The notes beneath the pieces were generated by a model. It saw only the letters and a program-made list of their open reading frames with translations. It searched no databases and was not told the origin of the DNA. This document shows positions 3,834 through 12,420 of a stretch of 64,000 nucleotides of DNA, piece after piece. Every line of letters begins with the position of its first letter. Within the stretch, counting starts at the first letter, position 1. Source of the stretch: Dehalococcoidia bacterium (lineage in GTDB: Bacteria; Chloroflexota; Dehalococcoidia; Lucifugimonadales; Australimonadaceae); contig OZ220673.1 of the NCBI GenBank assembly GCA_965116305.1, positions 469,784-533,783 on the forward strand, given 5' to 3'. Both the position numbers and the translations under genes were made by a program.

Positions 3834-3909
3834 TGGAGCCCACAATCGGACTTGAACCGATGACCTCGTTCTTACCAAGAACGTGCTCTACCGCCTGAGC
3901 TATGTGGGC
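3834..3909 (-). tRNA. tRNA-Thr (anticodon GGT), CCA encoded
   Basis: Reverse complement is GCCCACATAGCTCAGGCGGTAGAGCACGTTCTTGGTAAGAACGAGGTCATCGGTTCAAGTCCGATTGTGGGCTCCA. It folds as a cloverleaf with acceptor GCCCACA/TGTGGGC, anticodon loop TTGGTAA and T-loop TTCAAGT. Confidence 0.92.
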
Positions 3910-3939
3910 GTGTCGTGCTGTTGTCTTCTGTGGCGCGGC

Positions 3940-4026
3940 TGGTGGAGGGAGCAGGATTCGAACCTGCGTAGCCCTGAGGGCGTCAGATTTACAGTCTGAT
4001 GGATTTAGCCGCTCTCCCATCCCTCC
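3940..4026 (-). tRNA. tRNA-Tyr (anticodon GTA), long variable arm, CCA encoded
   Basis: Reverse complement is GGAGGGATGGGAGAGCGGCTAAATCCATCAGACTGTAAATCTGACGCCCTCAGGGCTACGCAGGTTCGAATCCTGCTCCCTCCACCA. Acceptor GGAGGGA/TCCCTCC, anticodon loop CTGTAAA, class II variable arm. Confidence 0.92.
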
Positions 4027-4108
4027 ACGGAGGCTGTGCGCCTGTCCGGTGAACGTATCCTAACACTCTCCCCTGTCTGTAGGAGAGGCTCGCTCCCCCG
4101 GTGAGACT

Positions 4109-4183
4109 TGGAGCCCGAGGAGGGAGTCGAACCCACAACCTGCCGATTACAAATCGGCTGCGCTGCCGTTGCGCCACTCGGGC
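4109..4183 (-). tRNA. tRNA-Thr (anticodon TGT), CCA encoded
   Basis: Reverse complement is GCCCGAGTGGCGCAACGGCAGCGCAGCCGATTTGTAATCGGCAGGTTGTGGGTTCGACTCCCTCCTCGGGCTCCA. Acceptor GCCCGAG/CTCGGGC is perfect and the anticodon loop is TTTGTAA. There is one T:T mismatch in the T-stem. Confidence 0.85.
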
Positions 4184-4204
4184 CGGGACGGCATCCGCCT
4201 CAAC

Positions 4205-4231
4205 CAAAAAAGACGGCCCGCAGGCCCGTCC
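4205..4231 (-). terminator. Intrinsic terminator downstream of hsdR (minus strand)
   Basis: The minus strand reads GACGGGCC-TGC-GGGCCGTC (7 bp with one mismatch) followed by TTTTTTGG. It lies between the end of the R-M operon and the tRNA genes. Confidence 0.6.
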
Positions 4232-4330
4232 AATCGCAGATTATCGTACACCCGCGCAGGCGAGTCAAGCGTCACGCTTGCCCTCCGCACAGCAGTCGTG
4301 GGCGTGACCCGCGACGTGGGGCGCAGCCCC

Positions 4331-4438
4331 CGTCATTCCAGCGAAAGCTGGAATCCAGCGTGCCCGACGGGGCACATGGGCCGGGGCGTGGGGTGTCTTC
4401 TCCTTCTCCCCGGGGGAGATGGCTAGGCTGAGGGTGAA
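4331..4438. repeat. Intergenic repeat cluster (family A hairpin plus family B hairpin)
   Basis: CGTCATTCCAGCGAAAGCTGGAATCC at 4331-4358 and TCCTTCTCCCCGGGGGAGATGG..GCTGAGGGTGAA at 4403-4438. The latter overlaps the hsdR stop. Confidence 0.8.
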
Positions 4439-7400
4439 CCGGCGGGGGGCTGGCCACGGAGGGCAGCCCCGATGTAGGTCATCGCGAAACTCATCTCCGT
4501 TACCCACCGCCGGAACGACTCGTTGTCGCTGAACTGCTTGAACAGCTCCGTGTGGTCGTAGAGCAGTTCATTCATGGCGCGCTCCAGCGCCTTGTCGTGC
4601 TCGATCCTCGCGTTCTGCTTGTCGGAATTGGCCATTGCGTTCTTGTACGCCTGGTCCTCGGCTACCTTGGCCGGCAGCTCTTCGATTATGACCTTCCCGA
4701 TCTTGTCCTGGTCCTTCCACTCGATGTTGCCGAACCGGTTGTTGAAGTCCTTGAGGATGTTGGAGAGCCGGTCCATCTCCGGTTCGGCCTTCTGTCCACC
4801 ACCGCCGGTGTCTATCGGCGGGATCTCCGCATCCTCGTCCGCAAGCTGGATGGCCTGCACCGCCTGCTTTTCCACGCGGTAGCTGTCCATGTCGATGGTT
4901 TCGAGGATGCCCTTCGAGAAGTCGTCCTCGATCGGCGCAGGGAGCTTGGGAACGAGGAACGTCAGGAAGATGGACAGTTTCTCCCACTCGGCGTAGGCAT
5001 AAGGCAGGATGGCCCCCAGGAAATCGTAGGACCGGAGAAACGCCTTCGCCTTCCCCTTGAAGTCCACCTGTCCGTCCTCGTCCAACTGCTCGCGGTACAC
5101 CGCGACGCACGCGTCCAGTATCGGGTCGAGTTTGTCGCGGTCAGCCCCTCCGAGATACAGCTCGACCAACTTGTCCACCTGTGCTGGGCTGTAGACCTGG
5201 TAGCCGTCGAGGGTTGCCTTCAGGTCGTGCAGCCTGTTCGGGTCCGTCTCCTCCGACAGGATGGTGGTGCGGTAGTAGTCGGCGAACGCGTTCTGGATCG
5301 TGTCGGCGTCGTTGGCGAAGTCCAGCACGAAGGTATCGTGCTTCTTGGGGTGGGCGCGGTTGAGGCGCGACAGCGTCTGCACCGCCTTCACGCCGGACAG
5401 CACCTTGTCCACATACATCGTATGGAGCAGCGGCTCGTCGTACCCCGTCTGGAACTTGTCTGCGCACACGAGGAAGCGATAGGGCTCTTCTTGTATCTTC
5501 TCCTCGATCAGGTTGGACGGGAAGCCGTTGAGGGACGCTTCGGTGACCTTTGTCCCTTCGTACTCATGCTCGCCGGAGAAGGCGACGATGGCCCGGTAAG
5601 GGATCTTCCACTCCGTGAGGTAGTCCCGGATGGCGTAGAAGTACGTGATGGCCCGATTGACGCTGCCGGTGACCACCATCGCCCGCGCCAGTCCGCCTAT
5701 CTTCCGTTGCCCCGCGGCCTGCTCGTTGAAGTTGTCCACCATCATCTCCGCCTTGAGTCGGATGGCGTGATCGTGCTCCTCCACGTAGCGGCGCAGCTTC
5801 TTGCTCGCCCGGTTGGTGTCGAACTCCGGGTCTCCTTCCACTGTCTTCACCAGCCGGTAGTAGCTGTTCGCCGTCGTGTAGTGCGCAAGCACGTCGAGGA
5901 TGAACCCCTCTTGGATCGCCTGCTTCATCGTGTAGGAGTGGAAGGGCACGTGCCTCGTCTTGCCGCCCTCGGGAACGAGCGCTCCGAAGATCTCCAGCGT
6001 CTTGTTCTTCGGTGTGGCAGTGAAGGCGAAGTAGCTGGCGTTGGTCAGCAGCTTTCTGCTCTCCATGATCTGGTTGATCTTGTCCTCGGTGGTCTCCTCC
6101 TCCTCAGCGTCAACCTCTCCAAGGACCCTCCCTACAGCCGCTGAGGTCTTGCCGCCTTGGCTGGAGTGCGCCTCGTCGATGATGAGGGCGAACGTGCGCC
6201 CCTGGTGCTCGCTGCCGATGGCGTCTACGATGAACGGGAACTTCTGAACGGTGGTGATAACGATACGCTTGCCTGCCTGGAGCAGCGTCCGCAGGTGCGC
6301 GGAGGTCTCGGCATGGCCCACGGTGGAGCCAACCTGGGCAAACTGTTTAATCGTGTCGCGTATCTGCCTGTCGAGCACCCTCCGGTCTGTAATGACGATG
6401 ACGGAATCGAAGATCGTTTTGTCGTCATGCTTCAGACCGATTAGTTGGTAGGCTAGCCACGCGATCGAGTTGGACTTCCCGCTCCCCGCCGAGTGCTGGA
6501 TCAGGTACCGGGGTCCGGCGCCCCTCTCGGATGCATCGGCGAGCAGCTCGCGCACCACGTCCAACTGGTGGTAACGCGGCCATATCTGCTCTCGCTTCCT
6601 GCGGCCCGTCTTCTCGTCCTTGGACTCCAGGATCTGCGCGTAGTTCTCGATGATGTCAGTCAGCCCGTCGCGCGTCAGTACCTGCTTCCACAGGTAGTCG
6701 GTTCTCAGGCCGTTGGGGTTCGGCGGGTTGCCCGCGCCCCCGTCGGTCCCCCCCTTGTTGAAGGGCAGGAACCACGACGACTTGCCAGTGAGGTGCGTGC
6801 AGAACTTCACCTCCTGGTCGTCGACGGCGAAGTGGGCGAGGCAGCGGCCCAGCTCGAAGAGCCGCTCTCTGGGATTGCGGTCTCGCTTGTACTGCTCGAC
6901 GGCGTCCTCCACCGTCTGCTTCGTCAGGCTGTTCTTCAACTCGAAAGTGGCAACAGGCAGGCCGTTGACGAACAGGCACACGTCCAGGGCAAGCTGCGGG
7001 TTGTCGTTGCTGTACCGGAGTTGCCGCGTCACGCTGAACCGGTTCTGCCGGTACAGCGCCTCCGCATTCTGGTTCCCCGGCGACGGCGTGCCGTACATCA
7101 GCTCTATCTGGTAGGGCCCGTGTTTGACGCCCTTCCGCAGCACGTCGATGGTCCCCCGTTTGGAGACCTCGCTCTGCAACCGTGCCAGGAACTTGCGCCG
7201 TGTGGGGCTCTCCTTCCGGAGGTCCAGCGACTCTGCGACGACCGGCTGCGTGGCTTCGAGGAACGCAGCGAGCTTGGCGAGGTCGACGCAGTACTCACGC
7301 TCGTAGTCGTGCGGGTCGCCGCATACCCAGCCGAACCCATAGGCGGCCGGCCGCTCTTCCAATGCGCCGTCCGGGGGCGTGTCGCACGGGGCGCCCGTCA

Positions 7401-7644
7401 ACGCCTCGCAGATGAGGCGCTCAAGCCCCTTCTCGCTGGTGTCGGTGACCGCGCCGGCTGCACGTCCCACGTGCTTTTCCCCGGGACGGTAGAACGCCCC
7501 CCGCGTCACGTTTGACCAATTCAGAACTTCGGGGGCGTCTGTGGTGTCGATCTGGTCGTCGGGCAGCCTCTTCAGCGCCGATATCTGCTCCCGCTGTCTC
7601 GGCGTCAGCTCAGGCATATCCTTCCTCGTAAGCTCTTCTCTCAT
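4423..7644 (-). CDS. hsdR: Type I restriction enzyme R subunit (HsdR), with a BrnA/DUF4415-like N-terminal segment in the same reading frame
   Basis: 1073-aa ORF. SF2 helicase motifs are present: QHSAGSGKSNSIAW (Walker A) and LIIDEAHSSQGG (DEAH box), along with the typical HsdR architecture. Residues 10-57 (MPELTPRQREQISALKRLPDDQIDTTDAPEVLNWSNVTRGAFYRP) look like the first half of a BrnA antitoxin. Alternative starts are ATG 7617 (SD GAGGAAGGA) and GTG 7470 (HsdR-only). Confidence 0.9.
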   Translation of the reverse strand: MREELTRKDMPELTPRQREQISALKRLPDDQIDTTDAPEVLNWSNVTRGAFYRPGEKHVGRAAGAVTDTSEKGLERLICEALTGAPCDTPPDGALEERPAAYGFGWVCGDPHDYEREYCVDLAKLAAFLEATQPVVAESLDLRKESPTRRKFLARLQSEVSKRGTIDVLRKGVKHGPYQIELMYGTPSPGNQNAEALYRQNRFSVTRQLRYSNDNPQLALDVCLFVNGLPVATFELKNSLTKQTVEDAVEQYKRDRNPRERLFELGRCLAHFAVDDQEVKFCTHLTGKSSWFLPFNKGGTDGGAGNPPNPNGLRTDYLWKQVLTRDGLTDIIENYAQILESKDEKTGRRKREQIWPRYHQLDVVRELLADASERGAGPRYLIQHSAGSGKSNSIAWLAYQLIGLKHDDKTIFDSVIVITDRRVLDRQIRDTIKQFAQVGSTVGHAETSAHLRTLLQAGKRIVITTVQKFPFIVDAIGSEHQGRTFALIIDEAHSSQGGKTSAAVGRVLGEVDAEEEETTEDKINQIMESRKLLTNASYFAFTATPKNKTLEIFGALVPEGGKTRHVPFHSYTMKQAIQEGFILDVLAHYTTANSYYRLVKTVEGDPEFDTNRASKKLRRYVEEHDHAIRLKAEMMVDNFNEQAAGQRKIGGLARAMVVTGSVNRAITYFYAIRDYLTEWKIPYRAIVAFSGEHEYEGTKVTEASLNGFPSNLIEEKIQEEPYRFLVCADKFQTGYDEPLLHTMYVDKVLSGVKAVQTLSRLNRAHPKKHDTFVLDFANDADTIQNAFADYYRTTILSEETDPNRLHDLKATLDGYQVYSPAQVDKLVELYLGGADRDKLDPILDACVAVYREQLDEDGQVDFKGKAKAFLRSYDFLGAILPYAYAEWEKLSIFLTFLVPKLPAPIEDDFSKGILETIDMDSYRVEKQAVQAIQLADEDAEIPPIDTGGGGQKAEPEMDRLSNILKDFNNRFGNIEWKDQDKIGKVIIEELPAKVAEDQAYKNAMANSDKQNARIEHDKALERAMNELLYDHTELFKQFSDNESFRRWVTEMSFAMTYIGAALRGQPPAGSPSA

Positions 7645-7885
7645 TCGGCGTCGCTCGGCGGGCGCTGATGATGCGTCCAGCGTCCGGCTCGTCAGGCCAG
7701 GTGTGAACGACCAGGACGAGGAGCCCTTCGATCATCCCAATCGTACGCCATCGCTGCTCGTATGGGTACGGATCGTCGTGTGTCGCTGCGAGCAGATCAT
7801 CGAACACGAGTATCGCGGTCTCGAACTCTATGCCGTGGTCCCGGAGGTTCGCTTCATTCTTCGCTTGGTCCCACTCCCAGATCAA
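7610..7885 (-). CDS. brnT: BrnT-family (DUF497) toxin, putative ribonuclease
   Basis: 91-aa ORF with a TTG start. IWEWDQAKNEANLRDHGIEFETAILVFDD...RWRTIGMIEGLLVLVVHTW...GRIISARRATPNERRAYEEG matches the BrnT pattern closely. Confidence 0.85.
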   Translation of the reverse strand: MIWEWDQAKNEANLRDHGIEFETAILVFDDLLAATHDDPYPYEQRWRTIGMIEGLLVLVVHTWPDEPDAGRIISARRATPNERRAYEEGYA

Positions 7886-9338
7886 TTGCCTGGCCTACCT
7901 CTTCCGGCTCACCCACGTCGTAGGAGCCATCCTCCCTATTGTCCGGCACCCAGTCATCTTCGTCTATCGGCTCTTCTGTCTCCTCCTCTTCCTCCGGGAG
8001 CAGCGCCGCCGCCTCGCGTACGTCCACCTTGCCCGTCACCACGTCGGCGACGAGCCGGGTGCGGTACTCCTCGACCAACTCGATCTGACGGCGAACCCGG
8101 GCGATAGCCTTGTCAATCGGTGCTGTAGTTTCTCCCACGTACCGCAGAATCGATTGGCGTTCTTCAAGCGGAGGAAATGGAACCTTCATGTTGCGTAGAA
8201 TTCCTAATGTCAGTTGATTGATAGTCGACGTAAAGAATGCTCCTGATTGGTACTCAAAGAACTCCGAATTAAATACTTGGTGCAGATAGTCGTTATTCAC
8301 ACCTCTGAATACTGTCATGAAAGCGCCAAAGGTCGTCCCCGCAGAATCTGCGCTGATGCGGGCGTTCTTCCCAATCAATGTTCGGCTTCCACTTCGAGTG
8401 CAGATAAGTATATCTCCATCTCTAGTAATCAATTTGTCCGGTACGGTACTACTCACATAAACGTTGTCGCCGTACACCAACTGTCCCCCCAGTATGTTGG
8501 ATGCACGTAGAACCAGGATTCCTGCGTCCTCGTCCACCACGTCTTGGGGATCGTAGGTCAATCCAATCAGTGCATCGCCCAGATTCCTCAGCCGCCGCAC
8601 TTCCCAGTGCTCCGGCACGTCCCCGAGCCACTCGACGCCGGAGGGCTTGAGGCGGGCGTTAGAGTCGAGGCCACGGGTGACGGCCTCGTTGACGATGGCC
8701 TGCTTCTCCTCCTCCAGCAGCGTGATGAGTCTCCGCTTAGTGCCGACGTACCGGCGGATGCGCTGGTCCACATAGTCCAAGTAGCGCACGATGGTCCGCT
8801 GCTCAGGGATAGGGGGAAGAGCAATCTGAACGGATTTGATGCCCACGTGAGTAAGGCCATACCGTGTCACTCCATTCGCCCTTACGTGGAACTGGTATGC
8901 CACAGCCTTGCTCTGCAATGCCAGGGCCAGATAAGCACCCTCTGTCTCAGCCGACGGCCGTAGCAAGGCTAAGTGGTAGCCAGAGAGAAGGTCATCGGCT
9001 GACTCTGCTACCAGACAAGGAACGCCGATGTCGTTCCAAGCCTCGGAGTCCTTGGTGATGAGCACATCGCCCCGCTCTAATCGAAATCTCTCAATCTCGT
9101 CAAGCGAGGCCGTCGCTGGCATAAAGGGCATAGCCGGTGTGATGCGGTCGTGTTTGTAGACATCGACATAGTTGCACAGACGAATAGGTATCTCCTCCTC
9201 TCGCGTGTGCTTGTCTACATTGCTGACGCGCATGTCGGCGACAGTCCTCAGCCGACGCACCTCCCAATGCTCCGGCATGTCGCCAAGCCACGGGATGCTG
9301 GAGGCCTTGTAGGCAGGATAGGAGGGGAGAGGGTTCAT
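7854..9338 (-). CDS. hsdS: Type I R-M specificity subunit (HsdS) with an acidic C-terminal tail
   Basis: 494-aa ORF. It has the duplicated TRD/conserved-region layout: LGDMPEHWEVRRLR and LGDVPEHWEVRRLR, two coiled-coil regions (IPEQRTIVRYLDYVDQRIRR and LEERQSILRYVGETTAPIDKAIARVRRQIELVEEYR). The tail is LPEEEEETEEPIDEDDW... Confidence 0.92.
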   Translation of the reverse strand: MNPLPSYPAYKASSIPWLGDMPEHWEVRRLRTVADMRVSNVDKHTREEEIPIRLCNYVDVYKHDRITPAMPFMPATASLDEIERFRLERGDVLITKDSEAWNDIGVPCLVAESADDLLSGYHLALLRPSAETEGAYLALALQSKAVAYQFHVRANGVTRYGLTHVGIKSVQIALPPIPEQRTIVRYLDYVDQRIRRYVGTKRRLITLLEEEKQAIVNEAVTRGLDSNARLKPSGVEWLGDVPEHWEVRRLRNLGDALIGLTYDPQDVVDEDAGILVLRASNILGGQLVYGDNVYVSSTVPDKLITRDGDILICTRSGSRTLIGKNARISADSAGTTFGAFMTVFRGVNNDYLHQVFNSEFFEYQSGAFFTSTINQLTLGILRNMKVPFPPLEERQSILRYVGETTAPIDKAIARVRRQIELVEEYRTRLVADVVTGKVDVREAAALLPEEEEETEEPIDEDDWVPDNREDGSYDVGEPEEVGQAIDLGVGPSEE

Positions 9339-10159
9339 TCTGCAAATTCACGCTGTATTCGTTCCACTATTTTGTTGTGCCATTCGCCATACTTGAACAG
9401 CAGGTTGTTTGACAGCCAAGCTTTTTCGGTTATGGCGTTCAGCGTCCATGCCAATGCTGAAACATCTGGACCGACAAAGAAGGCGTAATACTGCCCCACA
9501 TCAGGTTGGTTTGCATCCGGCTGTCCGTCCGGATTAAGTACAGTCACACCAGAAACAGTGCGTATAATCAAATACTGTTGGAGCACATGAACTATATTTG
9601 GTTGTCGTGCCAGGGGTACTTCGGGATGTTCATTGTAGAAATCTGTAATGTGGTCGCACACGGTATTTGCGTCGATCCCGTCATAGGCGAAGACGATTTT
9701 GTAAGGTGTATCTTGCCAGCTGTCTTCACTGATCTTCAAGAAAGGCGGCACAATCCCTCGTTGGTCAGGCATAGTAGGAACGGAAGCACAGTTGTTTAAC
9801 GCATCTATGAGAGTGTTCTTATCCAGGCGTGACTTTATTTCTGCTACTGCAACAGTACCTTCCAGTGGTGCGATGTATCGATTTCCGCGAGGCATTATGA
9901 ATCTGGGCGTGCTGCCATTGGTTGCTATAATGTCAACTTGGGTTGATGAATTACCTTTCATGTCGAAAACGTATCCTCCAAGGAACACATCACACATCTT
10001 GGGTAGGTGACGCTCTAGGAACGTTCGATACACTTCTTCCCGTTCCGTGCCTACTCCTGTTGGGTTCGTAAGCAAGCCGGCTTGCCTCGCTTGGCTACGC
10101 AGTTCGTCTGCAATCGAGATGTAATGTTGCTTGAGGTGATCAAAGACGTCTGGTGTCAT
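9335..10159 (-). CDS. Hypothetical protein with a PD-(D/E)xK-like nuclease motif (from memory it resembles the DUF6602 family); passenger gene between hsdM and hsdS
   Basis: 274 aa counted from ATG 10159 (the ORF-track ORF extends to 10315 but overlaps hsdM). Motifs are GTEREEVYRTFLERHLP, STQVDIIATNG and GTVAVAEIKSRL, i.e. E ... D ... E-x-K. There are ATGA start/stop overlaps at both ends. The gene is markedly AT-richer than its flanks. Confidence 0.6.
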   Translation of the reverse strand: MTPDVFDHLKQHYISIADELRSQARQAGLLTNPTGVGTEREEVYRTFLERHLPKMCDVFLGGYVFDMKGNSSTQVDIIATNGSTPRFIMPRGNRYIAPLEGTVAVAEIKSRLDKNTLIDALNNCASVPTMPDQRGIVPPFLKISEDSWQDTPYKIVFAYDGIDANTVCDHITDFYNEHPEVPLARQPNIVHVLQQYLIIRTVSGVTVLNPDGQPDANQPDVGQYYAFFVGPDVSALAWTLNAITEKAWLSNNLLFKYGEWHNKIVERIQREFAE

Positions 10160-12282
10160 AGAGAAACTATCTCCGCCAGCAACCCTTCGGTTTCCTGCTC
10201 TAAAGCCAGGATATCGGCCCGTATCTCGTCGAGTGCCCGCAGCGGCTGCGGCTTGTAGAAGTGACGCGTGAAGCTGATCTCGTAGCCGACCTTGACCTCC
10301 GACGGTACATACCATGCGTCCGGCGCGTAGGGCAGTACCTCCCGCCGCAGGAACCCTTCGATGCAGCCCTCCTCCAGCAGCGGCACCTGCTCGGTGTCGC
10401 GTAGTTCCGGGTCGGGCTCGTACTCCACTACGGTGCTCTGGCCGTCCACGTCAGTTGCGATCAGTCCACGGATTGGGTCGGGTTCAACCACACTCCGCTT
10501 GTGGGTCTTCTTGATGACAGGTGCAGCGGCCACTTCGCGAGATGCCAAAGCCATCTGCAATAGGTTCTTCCGCTTGACCGTCAATTTGACGCCATGCGCA
10601 GAAGCATCCGCCACAACGACTTCCATGAATCGGTTGAAGTCTGCGTGAGGTCCGTCGCCCAGCACTGTTGCCACCCGGTCGATGACGTTGGCGAGCGGCT
10701 CTTCGTTCGCGTCTCGGCAAGCGTCGCGGAAGCTTTGGCGGCGCTCCGGCGACAACTCCACGGTGAGCCGCAGCGGCCGTTCCACGGTGACCTTCCAGTA
10801 ACCGAATGCCTCGTTGAGGAATATCTTCGACTGCTCGGTTTCGTTGAACGCGAAGAACGTGTTGCAGATGCGTCGGATATCCTCGTCCGACAGTTCGCAG
10901 TTCTTGCTGCCGAGGTTCTTGCGGAGGGGGCGGCGCCACTGGGTGGCGTCGATGAGCTGCACCATTCCCTTGCGGTGCGCCGTCTTGCGGTTGCTCAGCA
11001 CCCAGATATACGTGGCGATGCCGGTGTTATAGAACATGTTCAGCGGCAGGGCGACGATCGCCTCCAGCCAGTCGTTCTCGATGATCCAGCGGCGGATGTT
11101 GCTCTCGCCCTGCCCCGCGTCGCCGGTGAACAGCGAACTGCCGTTGTGCACTTCGGCGATGCGGCTGCCTATCGGAGTCTGTTCGCTCGGGGACTTCATC
11201 TTGCTCAACATGTTGGCCAGGAACATCATCTGGCCGTCGCTGGAGCGGGTGATGAGGGAGTAGTCCGGGTCGCCGCCGTGCTCGACGACGAAGCGCGGGT
11301 CTGTGATGCCGCTCTTGCCGCCCATGTCCTCCAGGTCGCTCTTCCAGCTCTTGCCGTAGGGCGGATTGGACAGCATGAAGTCGAATTCCTGGGCGGGGAA
11401 GGCATCCTTGGCGAGGGTGGAGCCGAACCGCATGTTGTCAGCCTCTGCGCCCTCGCCCTTCAGAATGAGGTCGGCCTTGCTGATGGCGTACGTCTCCCCG
11501 TTCACTTCTTGGCCGAACAGGTGGATGGAGACGTCCTTGCCCTGCTCGGCGGCCAGTTCCATGAGCGTGCCCTCGGCAACGGTCAGCATGCCGCCGGTGC
11601 CGCAGGCGCCGTCGTAGACGAGGTAGGTGCCGGACCTGATCTCGTCTGCCACGGGCAGGAACACGAGGCGCGCCATGAGTTGCACCACGTCTCTGGGAGT
11701 GAAGTGCTCCCCGGCCTCCTCGTTGTTCTCCTCGTTGAACCGCCTGATCAGCTCCTCGAAGACCGTGCCCATGCCGTGGTTGTCCAGCCCCTCGAGCCGC
11801 ACGGAGCCGTCGGCGTTCAGGACGGGGCGCGGGCTGAGGTTGATGGACCTGTCCGTGAACTTCTCGATGAGGAAGCCAAGCCGCCCCGTGTCCGCGAGCC
11901 TGGGGATCTGGTTGCGGAACTCGAACTTGTCCAGCACCTCTTGGATATTTGGTGAGAAGCCGTCGAGGTACTCCTCGAAGTCTGCCTTCAACTGCTGCAC
12001 ATTAGTGCGCGAGGTGAGATCGCCGAGCAGAACGCGTGACGTGTTATAGAAAGACTCGCCGGAGGCCTGGCGCAACGGGCCATCTTGGTTTGCTATACCG
12101 GCGGCGTCCAGATGCTTCTTCGTGGCACGCACCGCTTCCTTTGTCGGTTCCAGGACGGCATCGAGGCGGCGGATGACCGTCATAGGCAGGATCACGTCGC
12201 GGTACTTGCCCCGCACGTAGACATCGCGCAGCACGTCGTCCGCGATGCCCCAGATGAAGCTGCTGATGTTCAGTGCGCTCAC
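10156..12282 (-). CDS. hsdM: Type I R-M DNA methyltransferase subunit (HsdM)
   Basis: Motifs VYDGACGTGGML (SAM binding) and LSNPPYGKSWK (N6-adenine MTase motif IV). The likely start is GTG 12282, with GGAGGA 8 nt upstream, giving VSALNISSFIWGIADDVLRD. The ORF-track ORF runs to 12402 through a repeat. Confidence 0.92.
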   Translation of the reverse strand: MSALNISSFIWGIADDVLRDVYVRGKYRDVILPMTVIRRLDAVLEPTKEAVRATKKHLDAAGIANQDGPLRQASGESFYNTSRVLLGDLTSRTNVQQLKADFEEYLDGFSPNIQEVLDKFEFRNQIPRLADTGRLGFLIEKFTDRSINLSPRPVLNADGSVRLEGLDNHGMGTVFEELIRRFNEENNEEAGEHFTPRDVVQLMARLVFLPVADEIRSGTYLVYDGACGTGGMLTVAEGTLMELAAEQGKDVSIHLFGQEVNGETYAISKADLILKGEGAEADNMRFGSTLAKDAFPAQEFDFMLSNPPYGKSWKSDLEDMGGKSGITDPRFVVEHGGDPDYSLITRSSDGQMMFLANMLSKMKSPSEQTPIGSRIAEVHNGSSLFTGDAGQGESNIRRWIIENDWLEAIVALPLNMFYNTGIATYIWVLSNRKTAHRKGMVQLIDATQWRRPLRKNLGSKNCELSDEDIRRICNTFFAFNETEQSKIFLNEAFGYWKVTVERPLRLTVELSPERRQSFRDACRDANEEPLANVIDRVATVLGDGPHADFNRFMEVVVADASAHGVKLTVKRKNLLQMALASREVAAAPVIKKTHKRSVVEPDPIRGLIATDVDGQSTVVEYEPDPELRDTEQVPLLEEGCIEGFLRREVLPYAPDAWYVPSEVKVGYEISFTRHFYKPQPLRALDEIRADILALEQETEGLLAEIVSL

Positions 12283-12300
12283 GCTACTCGTCCTCCGGCG

Positions 12301-12420
12301 CCTCACCTTACAAGTGGAGAGGACCAGAGGCAACGTGCCCATATCCTCACCTCTCCCATTGGGAGAGAGCCTGCCGTGAGCTTGTCGAACAGGTCGCCGC
12401 ACAGCAGCGGGTGAGGGTTA
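12301..12420. repeat. Intergenic repeat cluster (family B)
   Basis: CCTCACCTTACAAGTGGAGAGG, CCTCACCTCTCCCATTGGGAGAGAG and GCGGGTGAGGGT. Confidence 0.75.

What the first reader, a model, noticed from the sequence alone, without database searches (positions are those of the whole stretch)
7468..7885. BrnT toxin whose antitoxin is only a half-BrnA, in frame with the HsdR N-terminus
Seen in the sequence: brnT (TTG 7885 to TGA 7610) is intact. The next ORF begins MPELTPRQREQISALKRLPDDQIDTTDAPEVLNWSNVTRGAFYRP. As I remember it, that is the N-terminal pattern of DUF4415/BrnA antitoxins (...IDxSDIPE...W..A.RG.FYRP).

A complete BrnA continues after FYRP with a ribbon-helix-helix-like DNA-binding tail of roughly 35-40 aa. 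Here the frame runs without a stop straight into GEKHVGRAAGAVTDTSEKGLERLICEALTG..., which is the HsdR body. The only HsdR-only start candidate is GTG at 7468-7470.

Inference: there are two possibilities.
(a) A deletion fused the toxin-binding part of BrnA to HsdR, so BrnT is tethered to or neutralised by the restriction subunit and released when HsdR is lost or inhibited. That would be a PrrC-like guard logic.
(b) The antitoxin is a decayed remnant and BrnT is unguarded or inactive.
Basis: partly seen in the sequence, partly recalled or inferred. Interest (0 to 1): 0.75.

Follow-up and report, generated by a model that had tools for sequence, protein, structure and literature searches.

The report
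Restriction subunit carrying an antitoxin domain
The DNA-cutting subunit (HsdR) of a type I restriction system here begins with the toxin-binding piece of the BrnA antitoxin and sits just after an intact BrnT toxin gene; the same fusion is conserved under selection in other genomes, so the restriction enzyme probably acts as the toxin's antidote.

Summary
brnT (7610-7885, minus strand) is a full-length BrnT gene. The next ORF (ATG 7617 to stop 4423) starts with about 45 residues homologous to the N-terminal half of BrnA. That is the same piece that was crystallised with a BrnT-like toxin in PDB 7vd7. The ORF then runs through an 11-residue linker into a complete HsdR. There is no stop and no ribbon-helix-helix (RHH) tail.

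This is not a one-off deletion. I found the same in-frame fusion in 10 other loci, from Dehalococcoidia genome bins and metagenome contigs.
- The linkers differ between loci.
- dN/dS is 0.15-0.32 for the extension and 0.10-0.32 for brnT.
- The ancestral hsdR start codon is lost.
- Seven of the 11 loci have no start codon in the linker.
- brnT is intact directly upstream in 7 of 11 loci, always with a TTG start. It is truncated in 2 and replaced in 2.
- brnT was absent from all of the roughly 50 related hsdR loci that lack the extension.

Best reading: HsdR is the BrnT antitoxin, with the toxin tethered to its N-terminal tail. What releases the toxin is inferred, not shown; candidates are HsdR loss, HsdR proteolysis or phage anti-restriction, by analogy with PrrC. 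The decayed-remnant reading is disfavoured. I found no published description. I rate it a new variant of a known kind, interest about 0.7.

The parts
7610..7885 (-). brnT: 91-aa BrnT-family (RelE/BECR-fold) ribonuclease toxin. TTG start at 7885, overlapping the last 32 nt of hsdS. TGA stop at 7610-7612.
   Evidence: Pfam PF04365 E=1.5e-23, full model. 7vd7_A E=4.6e-18 and 3u97_A E=9.4e-5. TTG start conserved in all 7 intact orthologues. dN/dS 0.10-0.32. His of the KHG motif, Phe (LVF) and Glu (ER) are kept; the Lys is Asp here.
7610..7627 (-). Coupling junction. Purine-rich AGGAAGGA (7619-7626), then ATG 7615-7617, which overlaps the brnT stop (ATGCCTGA).
   Evidence: Read directly from the sequence. 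The same AGG AAG GAx ATG and 8-nt overlap occur in L008, L018 and L043; L045 keeps the AGG AAG GAC ATG but its brnT 3' end is altered. The public gene call for this exact protein starts at ATG 7617.
7483..7617 (-). BrnA-N domain: residues 1-45 of the fusion (MPELTP...RGAFYRP). Homologous to the N-terminal, toxin-binding half of BrnA antitoxins.
   Evidence: 7vd7_B (44-aa antitoxin chain in complex with the toxin) E=7.5e-4. tblastn to annotated BrnA genes, E to 5e-7. hhalign 99.4%, E=6.7e-22. dN/dS 0.15-0.32.
7450..7482 (-). Linker: residues 46-56 (GEKHVGRAAGA). Contains the non-conserved GTG 7468-7470. Ends with GCG 7450-7452 at the position of the ancestral hsdR start codon. Probably the remnant of the first RHH strand of BrnA.
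   Evidence: Alignment with full BrnAs. Start-codon survey. Linkers differ in length and sequence in distant fusions.
4423..7449 (-). HsdR body (about 1008 aa plus stop): PD-(D/E)xK nuclease domain, SF2 motor (GSGKS, DEAH) and C-terminal domains.
   Evidence: Pfam HSDR_N, ResIII/SWI2_SNF2 and T1R_D3-like. TIGR00348 E=2.2e-60. PADLOC REase_I E=2.7e-41. 63 related loci, most of them 63-88% identical. Closest solved structure is EcoR124I HsdR 2w00.
7854..9338 (-). hsdS, the specificity subunit. Its 3' end overlaps the brnT start.
   Evidence: Pfam Methylase_S. PADLOC Specificity_I E=4e-99.
9335..10315 (-). Embedded ORF between hsdM and hsdS: DUF6602 / PD-DExK NucC-like nuclease. The true start is probably near 10156. 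GC is lower (0.50-0.56).
   Evidence: Pfam DUF6602 E=1e-20. PADLOC PD_DExK 2e-23 and NucC 6e-13. Composition.
10156..12402 (-). hsdM, the methyltransferase subunit. The ORF is open from GTG 12402, but homologues suggest a start about 40 codons in.
   Evidence: Pfam HsdM_N plus N6_Mtase. PADLOC MTase_I E=3e-248. No sigma-70-like promoter or terminator on the minus strand inside 4423-12402, which is compatible with one operon.

Best explanation
**What it is.** A hybrid of a type II toxin-antitoxin pair and a type I restriction-modification operon, in which the restriction subunit is the antitoxin. The operon is hsdM, a NucC-like ORF, hsdS, brnT, then hsdR.

**What the sequence shows.**
- hsdR is translated from ATG 7617, coupled to the brnT stop, as one 1064-aa polypeptide.
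- Its first 45 residues are the BrnA module that binds BrnT.
- An 11-residue flexible linker follows, then the complete HsdR.
- The DNA-binding and dimerising RHH tail of BrnA has been replaced by HsdR. The pair therefore no longer regulates its own promoter and rides on the RM operon.
- Comparative data show the fusion is old, in frame and under purifying selection.

**Inferred.**
- Each HsdR holds one BrnT RNase inactive on its N-terminal tail. A weak TTG start keeps toxin output at or below HsdR output.
- BrnT becomes free when HsdR supply or integrity fails. Possible causes are loss or silencing of hsdR, shut-off of host expression, ClpXP/Lon-type proteolysis of HsdR (as in restriction alleviation), or a phage factor that attacks HsdR.
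- Free BrnT cleaves RNA and arrests the cell.
- The net effect is addiction to the R subunit, a second abortive layer behind restriction, or both.
For: **Homology of both partners to a solved toxin-antitoxin complex.**
- BrnT matches 7vd7_A at 4.6e-18.
- Fusion residues 16-54 match the 44-aa antitoxin chain 7vd7_B at 7.5e-4. Both end at the F(F/Y)RP motif.
- hhalign against full BrnAs gives 99.4%, and tblastn hits annotated BrnAs.

**Single polypeptide.**
- There is no stop between the BrnA-N segment and HsdR.
- The ancestral start codon is GCG or TCG in all five close fusions.
- Seven of 11 loci have no start codon in the linker.
- HsdR is intact at 1061-1075 codons in the window, L043, L008 and L018.
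- The public gene call uses ATG 7617.

**Selection.** The extension has dN/dS 0.15-0.32 at dS 0.3-1.6. brnT has 0.10-0.32.

**Breadth.**
- About 20 clusters at 50% identity span both halves.
- Linkers are unrelated between distant members, and one protein has a duplicated BrnA-N motif.

**Co-occurrence.**
- brnT is directly upstream, overlapping or abutting, in 7 of 11 fusion loci.
- brnT is in none of the roughly 50 non-fusion loci.
- BrnT and BrnA-N identities co-vary (r=0.78, descriptive only).

**Decay pattern typical of toxin-antitoxin pairs.** The toxin is lost first (L043, L070, L071, L072) while the antitoxin part persists. The reverse was never seen.
Against: - No binding, neutralisation or toxicity was tested. 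A multimer structure prediction was not possible.
- In 4 of 11 fusion loci the extension persists without an intact brnT, so it is at least tolerated on its own.
- The Lys of the KHG motif is Asp here and T/I/N/K in relatives. K17A only partly reduced activity in Aave_1720 (PMC10714953), but BrnT activity in this clade is unproven.
- Canonical BrnTA is a 2:2 complex (PMC10714953, citing Heaton 2012), and BrnA's RHH tail, the probable dimerising element (my own knowledge of RHH domains), is absent here. Neutralisation might need that.
- A large, presumably stable HsdR is an unusual antitoxin if lability is needed for release.
- The AlphaFold model of the first 300 residues is too poor to use (mean pLDDT 48.9).
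- A trans-acting full BrnA elsewhere in the genome cannot be excluded. None exists in the 64-kb window.
Confidence: 0.7

Rival explanations
1. Neutral relic. A deletion once joined brnA to hsdR. The N-terminal extension is simply tolerated, and BrnT is inactive or harmless. Nothing functional links the toxin to restriction.
For: In 4 of 11 fusion loci brnT is truncated or replaced while the extension remains. The Lys of the KHG motif is not conserved. Pfam does not recognise the segment.
Against: Both the extension (dN/dS 0.15-0.32) and brnT (0.10-0.32) are under purifying selection at near-saturated synonymous divergence. The BrnA motif ID.SDIPE..W...RG.F is kept across fusions that are only 32-49% identical, while the linkers diverge freely. 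The TTG start of brnT and the stop/start overlap are conserved. brnT is never found without the extension.
Confidence: 0.12
2. Two separate products. HsdR is made on its own from the internal GTG 7468-7470, whose upstream GGGGAAAAGCAC resembles a ribosome-binding site. A short antitoxin arises from the upstream codons by proteolytic processing or ribosome drop-off. The two proteins would then not be physically joined in the cell.
For: GTG is present at this position in the window, L043 and L067, and an ATG lies in the L070 linker. A G-rich stretch precedes the GTG.
Against: There is no stop codon to end a short antitoxin. The codon is GCG in L008 and GTA in L018 and L045. Seven of 11 loci have no start codon in the linker, yet HsdR is intact where it can be read. 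The ancestral start codon is mutated in every fusion examined.
Confidence: 0.08
3. Recruitment rather than neutralisation. The tail docks BrnT onto the restriction complex as a working accessory RNase, for example to cut nascent phage transcripts near the DNA being translocated. Alternatively, BrnT binding regulates HsdR activity or assembly.
For: The tether sits next to the HsdR nuclease domain. In this lineage toxin genes are very often wired directly to hsdR: 24 of 54 loci have a DUF5615 toxin gene ending at or just before the hsdR start.
Against: The retained segment corresponds to the antitoxin piece of a solved toxin-antitoxin complex. In canonical BrnTA, BrnA binding neutralises BrnT (PMC10714953, citing Heaton 2012). 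Loss of brnT with retention of an intact fusion HsdR (L043) shows that HsdR does not depend on BrnT.
Confidence: 0.07

Closest known systems
BrnT/BrnA type II toxin-antitoxin system (Brucella abortus; Pfam PF04365 / PF14384). Also the solved complex PDB 7vd7 (toxin plus 44-aa antitoxin fragment).
   Same: - Toxin-first gene order with overlapping stop and start.
- BrnT is full length.
- The antitoxin N-terminal motif (LT..QR..L..L.D.EID.SDIPE..W...RG.FYRP) is present. It ends at the same F(F/Y)RP motif as the 44-aa antitoxin chain of 7vd7.
   Different: - No RHH DNA-binding and dimerisation tail, so no autoregulation.
- The antitoxin module is not a free 90-105-aa protein. It is the N-terminus of a protein of about 1060 aa, HsdR.
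- It fails the Pfam BrnA model.
- The Lys of the KHG motif in BrnT is not conserved.
PrrC anticodon nuclease held latent by the type IC enzyme EcoprrI (prrC lies within the hsd locus; activated by T4 Stp). Source: PMC12707154, PMC1484252.
   Same: An RNase gene is embedded in a type I RM operon next to hsdR. The RNase is presumably silenced by physical association with the restriction enzyme. This gives the logic of a second translation-targeting line of defence tied to the state of the restriction enzyme.
   Different: - BrnT is a 91-aa RelE/BECR-fold RNase, not an ABC-ATPase plus anticodon-nuclease protein.
- Here the link is a covalently fused antitoxin domain, not non-covalent masking by the complex.
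- The trigger is unknown.
Toxin-antitoxin modules embedded in or coupled to type I RM operons (for example DUF433 with PIN_10/DUF5615, and PIN-like toxins next to HsdM/HsdS). Source: PMC5499597.
   Same: The genomic niche is the same. In the relatives of this locus, 24 of 54 carry DUF433 plus DUF5615 abutting the hsdR start. The window's brnT module sits in the same slot.
   Different: Those modules are complete, separate toxin-antitoxin pairs. That paper states that no direct TA-RM interaction had been shown. Here an antitoxin domain is part of the restriction subunit itself.
Single-chain BrnT-BrnA fusions and other fused toxin-antitoxin mono-genes. Source: PMC11980606.
   Same: They show that BrnA parts can function, or at least persist, when covalently joined to another protein.
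   Different: Those fuse toxin to antitoxin and keep the RHH or HTH domain. Here the antitoxin half-domain is fused to an unrelated enzyme and the toxin stays separate.

Membership tests
BrnT toxin (PF04365) | Full-length match to the family profile above the curated threshold | tested here: met
   83.3 bits against a cutoff of 34.5, profile positions 1-77 of 77, E=1.5e-23.
BrnT toxin (PF04365) | Sequence homology to solved BrnT-type toxins | tested here: met
   7vd7_A E=4.6e-18; Brucella BrnT 3u97_A E=9.4e-5.
BrnT toxin (PF04365) | Residues shown by mutagenesis to matter (Lys-His of KHG, Phe29, Glu86 in Aave_1720/BrnT; PMC10714953) | tested here: inconclusive
   His, Phe (LVF) and Glu (NER) are present. 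The Lys is Asp in the window and T/I/N/K in orthologues. K17A gave only partial loss in Aave_1720.
BrnT toxin (PF04365) | RNase activity and growth inhibition | not testable with these tools
   Needs expression assays.
BrnA antitoxin (PF14384 / DUF4415) | N-terminal toxin-binding segment with the ID.SDIPE...W..RG.FYRP motif | tested here: met
   hhalign 99.4%, E=6.7e-22 to BrnA columns 9-59. 7vd7_B E=7.5e-4. tblastn to annotated BrnAs, E to 5e-7.
BrnA antitoxin (PF14384 / DUF4415) | C-terminal ribbon-helix-helix DNA-binding tail (..ITxRxDxDVL..F...GxGYQTRxN..LR) | tested here: not met
   Absent in all three frames after FYRP. The alignment with three full BrnAs shows that HsdR sequence replaces it.
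BrnA antitoxin (PF14384 / DUF4415) | Match to the Pfam or NCBIfam family model | tested here: not met
   No hit even at E<=10 (Pfam) or E<=1 (NCBIfam) for the 84-aa and 45-aa N-terminal pieces.
BrnA antitoxin (PF14384 / DUF4415) | Small free-standing protein encoded immediately after, and overlapping, brnT | tested here: inconclusive
   Position and the 8-nt overlap with the brnT stop are met. Free-standing is not met: there is no stop codon before the end of hsdR.
Type I restriction enzyme HsdR | HSDR_N PD-(D/E)xK nuclease domain plus SF2 motor domains in one protein | tested here: met
   Pfam HSDR_N 1.3e-19, SWI2_SNF2 2.2e-27, ResIII 2.4e-14, T1R_D3-like 8.8e-10. The motifs FELK, GSGKS and DEAH are visible in the translation. 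TIGR00348 scores 204.9 bits, below its cutoff of 284.6.
Type I restriction enzyme HsdR | Encoded with hsdM and hsdS | tested here: met
   hsdM at 10156-12402 and hsdS at 7854-9338 on the same strand.
PrrC/EcoprrI-type restriction-linked RNase | RNase gene embedded in a type I RM locus next to hsdR | tested here: met
   brnT lies between hsdS and hsdR and overlaps both.
PrrC/EcoprrI-type restriction-linked RNase | PrrC architecture (ABC-type NTPase N-domain plus anticodon-nuclease C-domain) | tested here: not met
   The protein is 91 aa and its only Pfam hit is BrnT_toxin. There is no PADLOC hit.
PrrC/EcoprrI-type restriction-linked RNase | RNase masked by the restriction enzyme and unmasked by a phage anti-restriction factor | not testable with these tools
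   Masking is inferred from the fused BrnA-N domain. The trigger is unknown.

The most novel reading that the evidence does not exclude
HsdR-tethered BrnT is a restriction-coupled abortive-infection switch. When the restriction subunit is destroyed or disabled, the RNase is freed and shuts down translation. Possible causes are ClpXP-type degradation of stalled or translocating HsdR, a phage anti-restriction factor, or host shut-off. The cell would then convert a failed DNA-level defence into an RNA-level one. More broadly, in this lineage hsdR may be the hub to which toxins of several toxin-antitoxin families are wired. DUF433/DUF5615 abuts hsdR in 24 of 54 loci, and VapBC, M78/DUF4411 and BrnT occur in others.
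Probability: 0.3. Interest if true: 0.85.

Novelty: new variant of a known kind. Interest (0 to 1): 0.7.

Why it matters
- Toxin-antitoxin pairs and restriction systems cluster in defence islands. A 2017 survey stated that no direct TA-RM interaction had been shown (PMC5499597), and the papers I searched describe none for BrnA and HsdR. A conserved covalent fusion of an antitoxin's neutralising domain to HsdR would be a natural, directly testable example of such a link.
- It would also be a second, mechanistically different case of the PrrC principle, in which an RNase is kept silent by a type I enzyme.
- It shows that the BrnA neutralising segment is a portable module of about 45 residues.
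- It points to a blind spot in annotation. The Pfam BrnA model did not detect the 45-aa and 84-aa N-terminal pieces, probably because most of it covers the RHH, so such fusions are called plain HsdR and the brnT beside them looks like an orphan toxin.
- The system could be tested with a few constructs in E. coli.

Tried and rejected
- **Pfam and NCBIfam on the N-terminal 45 and 84 aa:** no hit. In the three full BrnAs scanned, the PF14384 match began only in or after the DIPE region, which probably explains the miss.
- **Single-sequence AlphaFold of BrnT:** it gave an all-helix model (pLDDT 70.5), which is wrong for a RelE-fold protein. I discarded it and ran no fold search on it.
- **AlphaFold of fusion residues 1-300 with a 27-sequence alignment:** mean pLDDT 48.9. 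Only helix 6-16 is confident. Residues 27-55 are unstructured, which is compatible with folding on binding but is not evidence.
- **Frameshifted RHH remnant after FYRP:** none in any frame.
- **A second brnA or brnT in the 64-kb window that could act in trans:** none.
- **Assembly artefact:** rejected, because the same junction is present in independent genome bins and metagenome contigs.
- **Monophyly of the fusion loci in an HsdR neighbour-joining tree:** they are scattered among non-fusion loci. The tree has no support values, so it does not distinguish module exchange by recombination from repeated loss.
- **Literature:** searches for 7VD7, BrnT with type I restriction, DUF4415, and HsdR with antitoxin fusion found no description of this architecture and no paper on 7vd7. 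Heaton 2012 (PMC3320955) is not held.
- **Locating the window's own public record through its HsdR protein:** failed.
- **Promoter and terminator scan:** nothing on the minus strand within the operon. This is only a consensus scan.
Full report
**1. What is in the window**

On the minus strand there is a tightly packed type I restriction-modification operon:
- hsdM, 10156-12402
- an embedded DUF6602 / NucC-like PD-DExK ORF, 9335-10315
- hsdS, 7854-9338
- brnT, 7610-7885
- a long ORF ending at 4423

The island abuts tRNA-Thr, tRNA-Tyr, tRNA-Thr and tuf. A consensus scan finds no sigma-70-like promoter and no terminator on the minus strand inside the operon.

brnT starts at TTG 7885, 32 nt before the hsdS stop, and ends at TGA 7610-7612. 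It matches the whole Pfam BrnT_toxin model (E=1.5e-23). It also matches two solved toxins, 7vd7_A (4.6e-18) and Brucella BrnT 3u97_A (9.4e-5).

**2.

The next ORF reads MPELTPRQREQISALKRLPDDQIDTTDAPEVLNWSNVTRGAFYRP-GEKHVGRAAGA-VTDTSEKGLERLICEALTG... and continues as a complete HsdR. It has the HSDR_N nuclease domain with FELK, the GSGKS and DEAH motor motifs, and the T1R_D3-like domain.

Pfam and NCBIfam do not see the N-terminal piece. Three independent comparisons show it is the N-terminal half of BrnA:
- The only PDB hit is the antitoxin chain of 7vd7. That chain is a 44-residue fragment ending ...VRGKFFRP, and its partner chain is the best PDB match of the window's BrnT (E=7.5e-4).
- tblastn against plasmids hits 602 records. 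The listed top hits are mostly annotated BrnA antitoxin, next to BrnT, with E down to 5e-7 and coverage stopping around residue 45-50.
- A profile of 12 fusion N-termini against a profile of three full BrnAs gives 99.4% probability and E=6.7e-22. It covers BrnA columns 9-59 of 101.

Full BrnAs continue after FYRP with IKQQITARVDADVL...GKGYQTRMNAILR, the RHH part that dominates PF14384. No such sequence follows FYRP here in any frame. The 11-residue linker still aligns with the first RHH strand (GEKHVGRAAGA against IKQQITARVDA). The join therefore lies inside that strand.

**3. Where normal HsdR starts**

A scan of one genome per species returned 63 related loci. Most are Dehalococcoidia genome bins. 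Most matches are 63-88% identical to the window's HsdR.

In about 50 of the 54 loci whose 5' end is readable, hsdR starts with GTG or ATG directly before TTDTSEKGLE. In the window that codon is GCG (7450-7452). In the other close fusions it is GCG or TCG. The ancestral start has therefore been lost.

**4. The fusion is conserved, not private**

The same in-frame junction occurs in:
- four other species-level genomes: L043, L008, L018 and L045
- metagenome contigs: L067 (P0001), L068 (P0024), L069 (P0143), L070 (P0018), L071 (P0010) and L072 (P0007)

An exhaustive HMMER search of 1.84 billion cluster representatives with residues 1-131 found about 20 representatives that span both halves, down to 44-48% identity.

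The BrnA motif is kept in these: Q8, L15, I23, P29, R39 and G40 are invariant. The linkers are unrelated in sequence and length. One protein (P0009) has the motif duplicated in tandem.

Among the five close loci, the extension (codons 11-64) has dN/dS 0.15-0.32 at dS 0.3-1.6. HsdR is intact at 1061-1075 codons in four of them.

Seven of 11 loci have no start-type codon anywhere in the linker. In those loci HsdR can only be made as the fusion.

The conserved start is ATG 7617. It lies just after AGGAAGGA and overlaps the brnT stop as ATGCCTGA. The exact 1064-aa product from that ATG is what public gene callers recorded.

**5. Link to brnT**

- brnT is intact directly upstream, overlapping or abutting the fusion start, in 7 of 11 fusion loci. 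All seven use a TTG start. dN/dS is 0.10-0.32.
- In L043 a clean in-frame deletion removed codons 7-67. This left a 30-codon mini-ORF that still overlaps the fusion ATG.
- In L070 only the C-terminal half of brnT remains.
- In L071 and L072 a Peptidase_M78/DUF4411 module sits in its place.
- None of the roughly 50 non-fusion loci has brnT.

This is the asymmetry expected of a toxin and its antitoxin: the toxin is never seen without the partner, while the partner sometimes outlives the toxin.

One caveat concerns the Lys of the KHG motif. It is Asp here and variable in the clade. His, Phe and Glu are kept (mutagenesis data in PMC10714953).

**6. Context in the lineage**

The slot between hsdS and hsdR is a hot spot for toxin-antitoxin cassettes.
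- 24 of 54 loci have a DUF433 plus DUF5615 (PIN-like) pair whose toxin gene ends at or just before the hsdR start, within 40 nt of the aligned HsdR N-terminus.
- L008 carries that pair upstream of brnT as well; L018 keeps only its DUF433 gene.
- L026 has three copies of the hsdR 5' end, each behind a toxin-antitoxin pair. This suggests cassettes arrive by recombination at the conserved hsdR 5' end.
- In a rough HsdR tree the fusion loci are scattered among non-fusion ones. That fits either module exchange or repeated loss.

**7. Mechanism**

Shown:
- one reading frame and loss of the ancestral start
- conservation under selection
- homology of the retained segment to the piece of a BrnA-type antitoxin that sits in a solved complex with the toxin
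- loss of the RHH

Inferred:
- BrnT binds the HsdR tail 1:1 and is inactive there.
- The pair is expressed from the RM operon without autoregulation.
- BrnT is freed when HsdR is lost, not replenished, proteolysed or attacked. Type IA and IB HsdR is a known ClpXP substrate during restriction alleviation (PMC12707154).
- The outcome is RNA cleavage and growth arrest.

The closest functional analogy is PrrC masked by EcoprrI and released by T4 Stp (PMC12707154, PMC1484252). BrnT is unrelated to PrrC, and here the tie is covalent on the antitoxin side.

My confidence by claim:
- about 0.9 that the fusion is real and translated
- about 0.7 that it serves as BrnT's antitoxin
- about 0.3 for any specific trigger

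**8. Rivals**

| Rival | Confidence | Main argument against |
|---|---|---|
| Neutral relic | 0.12 | Selection on both genes, and the co-occurrence pattern |
| Separate products from an internal start or by processing | 0.08 | No stop codon, and no start in the linker in 7 of 11 loci |
| BrnT recruited as an active accessory or regulator of HsdR | 0.07 | Not excluded, but the retained segment is the neutralising one in canonical BrnTA |

**9. Novelty**

The literature searches found embedded toxin-antitoxin modules in type I RM operons. One survey states explicitly that no direct TA-RM interaction had been shown (PMC5499597). They also found BrnT-BrnA single-chain fusions (PMC11980606). They found no BrnA-HsdR fusion.

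I rate it a new variant of a known kind: a type II toxin-antitoxin pair whose antitoxin module has become a domain of a restriction subunit, with a PrrC-like layout.

**10. What failed or is weak**

- Multimer prediction was not possible.
- The single-sequence BrnT model was wrong.
- The model of residues 1-300 had a mean pLDDT of 48.9.
- The tree has no support values.
- The pairwise statistics are not phylogenetically independent.
- Many metagenome contigs are low-coverage long-read assemblies with frameshifts. Gene integrity in them cannot be judged.

Noticed in passing
window 9335-10315 (minus strand): An ORF wedged between hsdM and hsdS is a DUF6602 / PD-DExK nuclease resembling the CBASS effector NucC (Pfam 1e-20; PADLOC PD_DExK 2e-23, NucC 6e-13). 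Together with hsdS it has lower GC (0.50-0.56 against 0.62-0.67). It is a second embedded effector in the same RM operon.
   Followed up: partly
L001 9438-9996, and 23 other related loci: 24 of 54 related hsdR loci have a DUF433 antitoxin plus DUF5615 (PIN-like) toxin pair whose toxin gene ends at or just before the hsdR start codon (1 nt before it in L001). L008 has the pair upstream of brnT too; L018 keeps only the DUF433 gene. In this lineage hsdR is habitually coupled to a toxin-antitoxin module.
   Followed up: partly
L026 6568-10885: Three copies of the first ~24 codons of hsdR (7137-7208, 9998-10069, and the real gene at 10885). Each is preceded by a toxin-antitoxin pair (DUF433+DUF5615 twice, a VapB-like ORF plus a PIN-domain ORF once). 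There is also a macro-domain ORF and an array of tandem repeats of about 120 nt (8247-9365). It looks like cassettes stacking by recombination at the conserved hsdR 5' end. L030, L020 and L042 also carry extra hsdR 5' fragments.
   Followed up: partly
L043 9776-9856: brnT has a clean in-frame deletion of codons 7-67 (LIWEWD|AGRIISAR). This leaves a 30-codon mini-ORF that still overlaps the start of an intact BrnA-N::HsdR fusion. The toxin is lost while the coupling and the antitoxin part are kept.
   Followed up: yes
L071 4269-6543; L072 1-759: In two fusion loci brnT is replaced by another module: Peptidase_M78 (ImmA/IrrE-like) plus DUF4411 (PIN-like) in L071, and a DUF4411-like C-terminal end in the short contig L072. 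The BrnA-N tail remains, although the FYRP motif has decayed in P0007 (LFSGSP).
   Followed up: partly
P0009 (163 aa, metagenome): One fusion protein carries two tandem BrnA-N motifs (..DDEIDLTEMPEVTDWSGAIQGLF.. and ..NEIDTTEIPEVFEWSNPKRGALYRP) before the HsdR N-terminus. It might hold two toxins, or it may be a duplication on the way to divergence.
   Followed up: no
L001 4353-7705: Between hsdM and hsdS this relative carries an AAA-ATPase (332 aa) and an S8 subtilase-like protein (783 aa). This may be another defence pair embedded in the RM operon. The hsdM-hsdS gap is variable across loci (1.5-3.6 kb).
   Followed up: no
window 7835-7843 (BrnT residues 15-17, RDH): The Lys of the BrnT KHG motif is Asp here, and T, T, I, N, N, K in the six orthologues. 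The gene as a whole is nevertheless under purifying selection. The clade may have an altered catalytic or substrate-binding site.
   Followed up: partly
window 3834-4423: The RM/BrnT island ends 240 nt from a tRNA-Thr(TGT), tRNA-Tyr, tRNA-Thr(GGT), tuf cluster. A sigma-70-like promoter hit at 4268-4240 lies just upstream of the first tRNA. I did not check whether the island is an insertion at the tRNA.
   Followed up: no
P0001, P0002, P0004, P0006; L067, L045: Several fusion genes in long-read metagenome contigs break frame about 100-120 codons in, around the ...YG.GW.CGDP.DYDREYC region. The contigs are low coverage (2x-4x), so these are probably sequencing errors. The recurrence at one region was not examined.
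   Followed up: no
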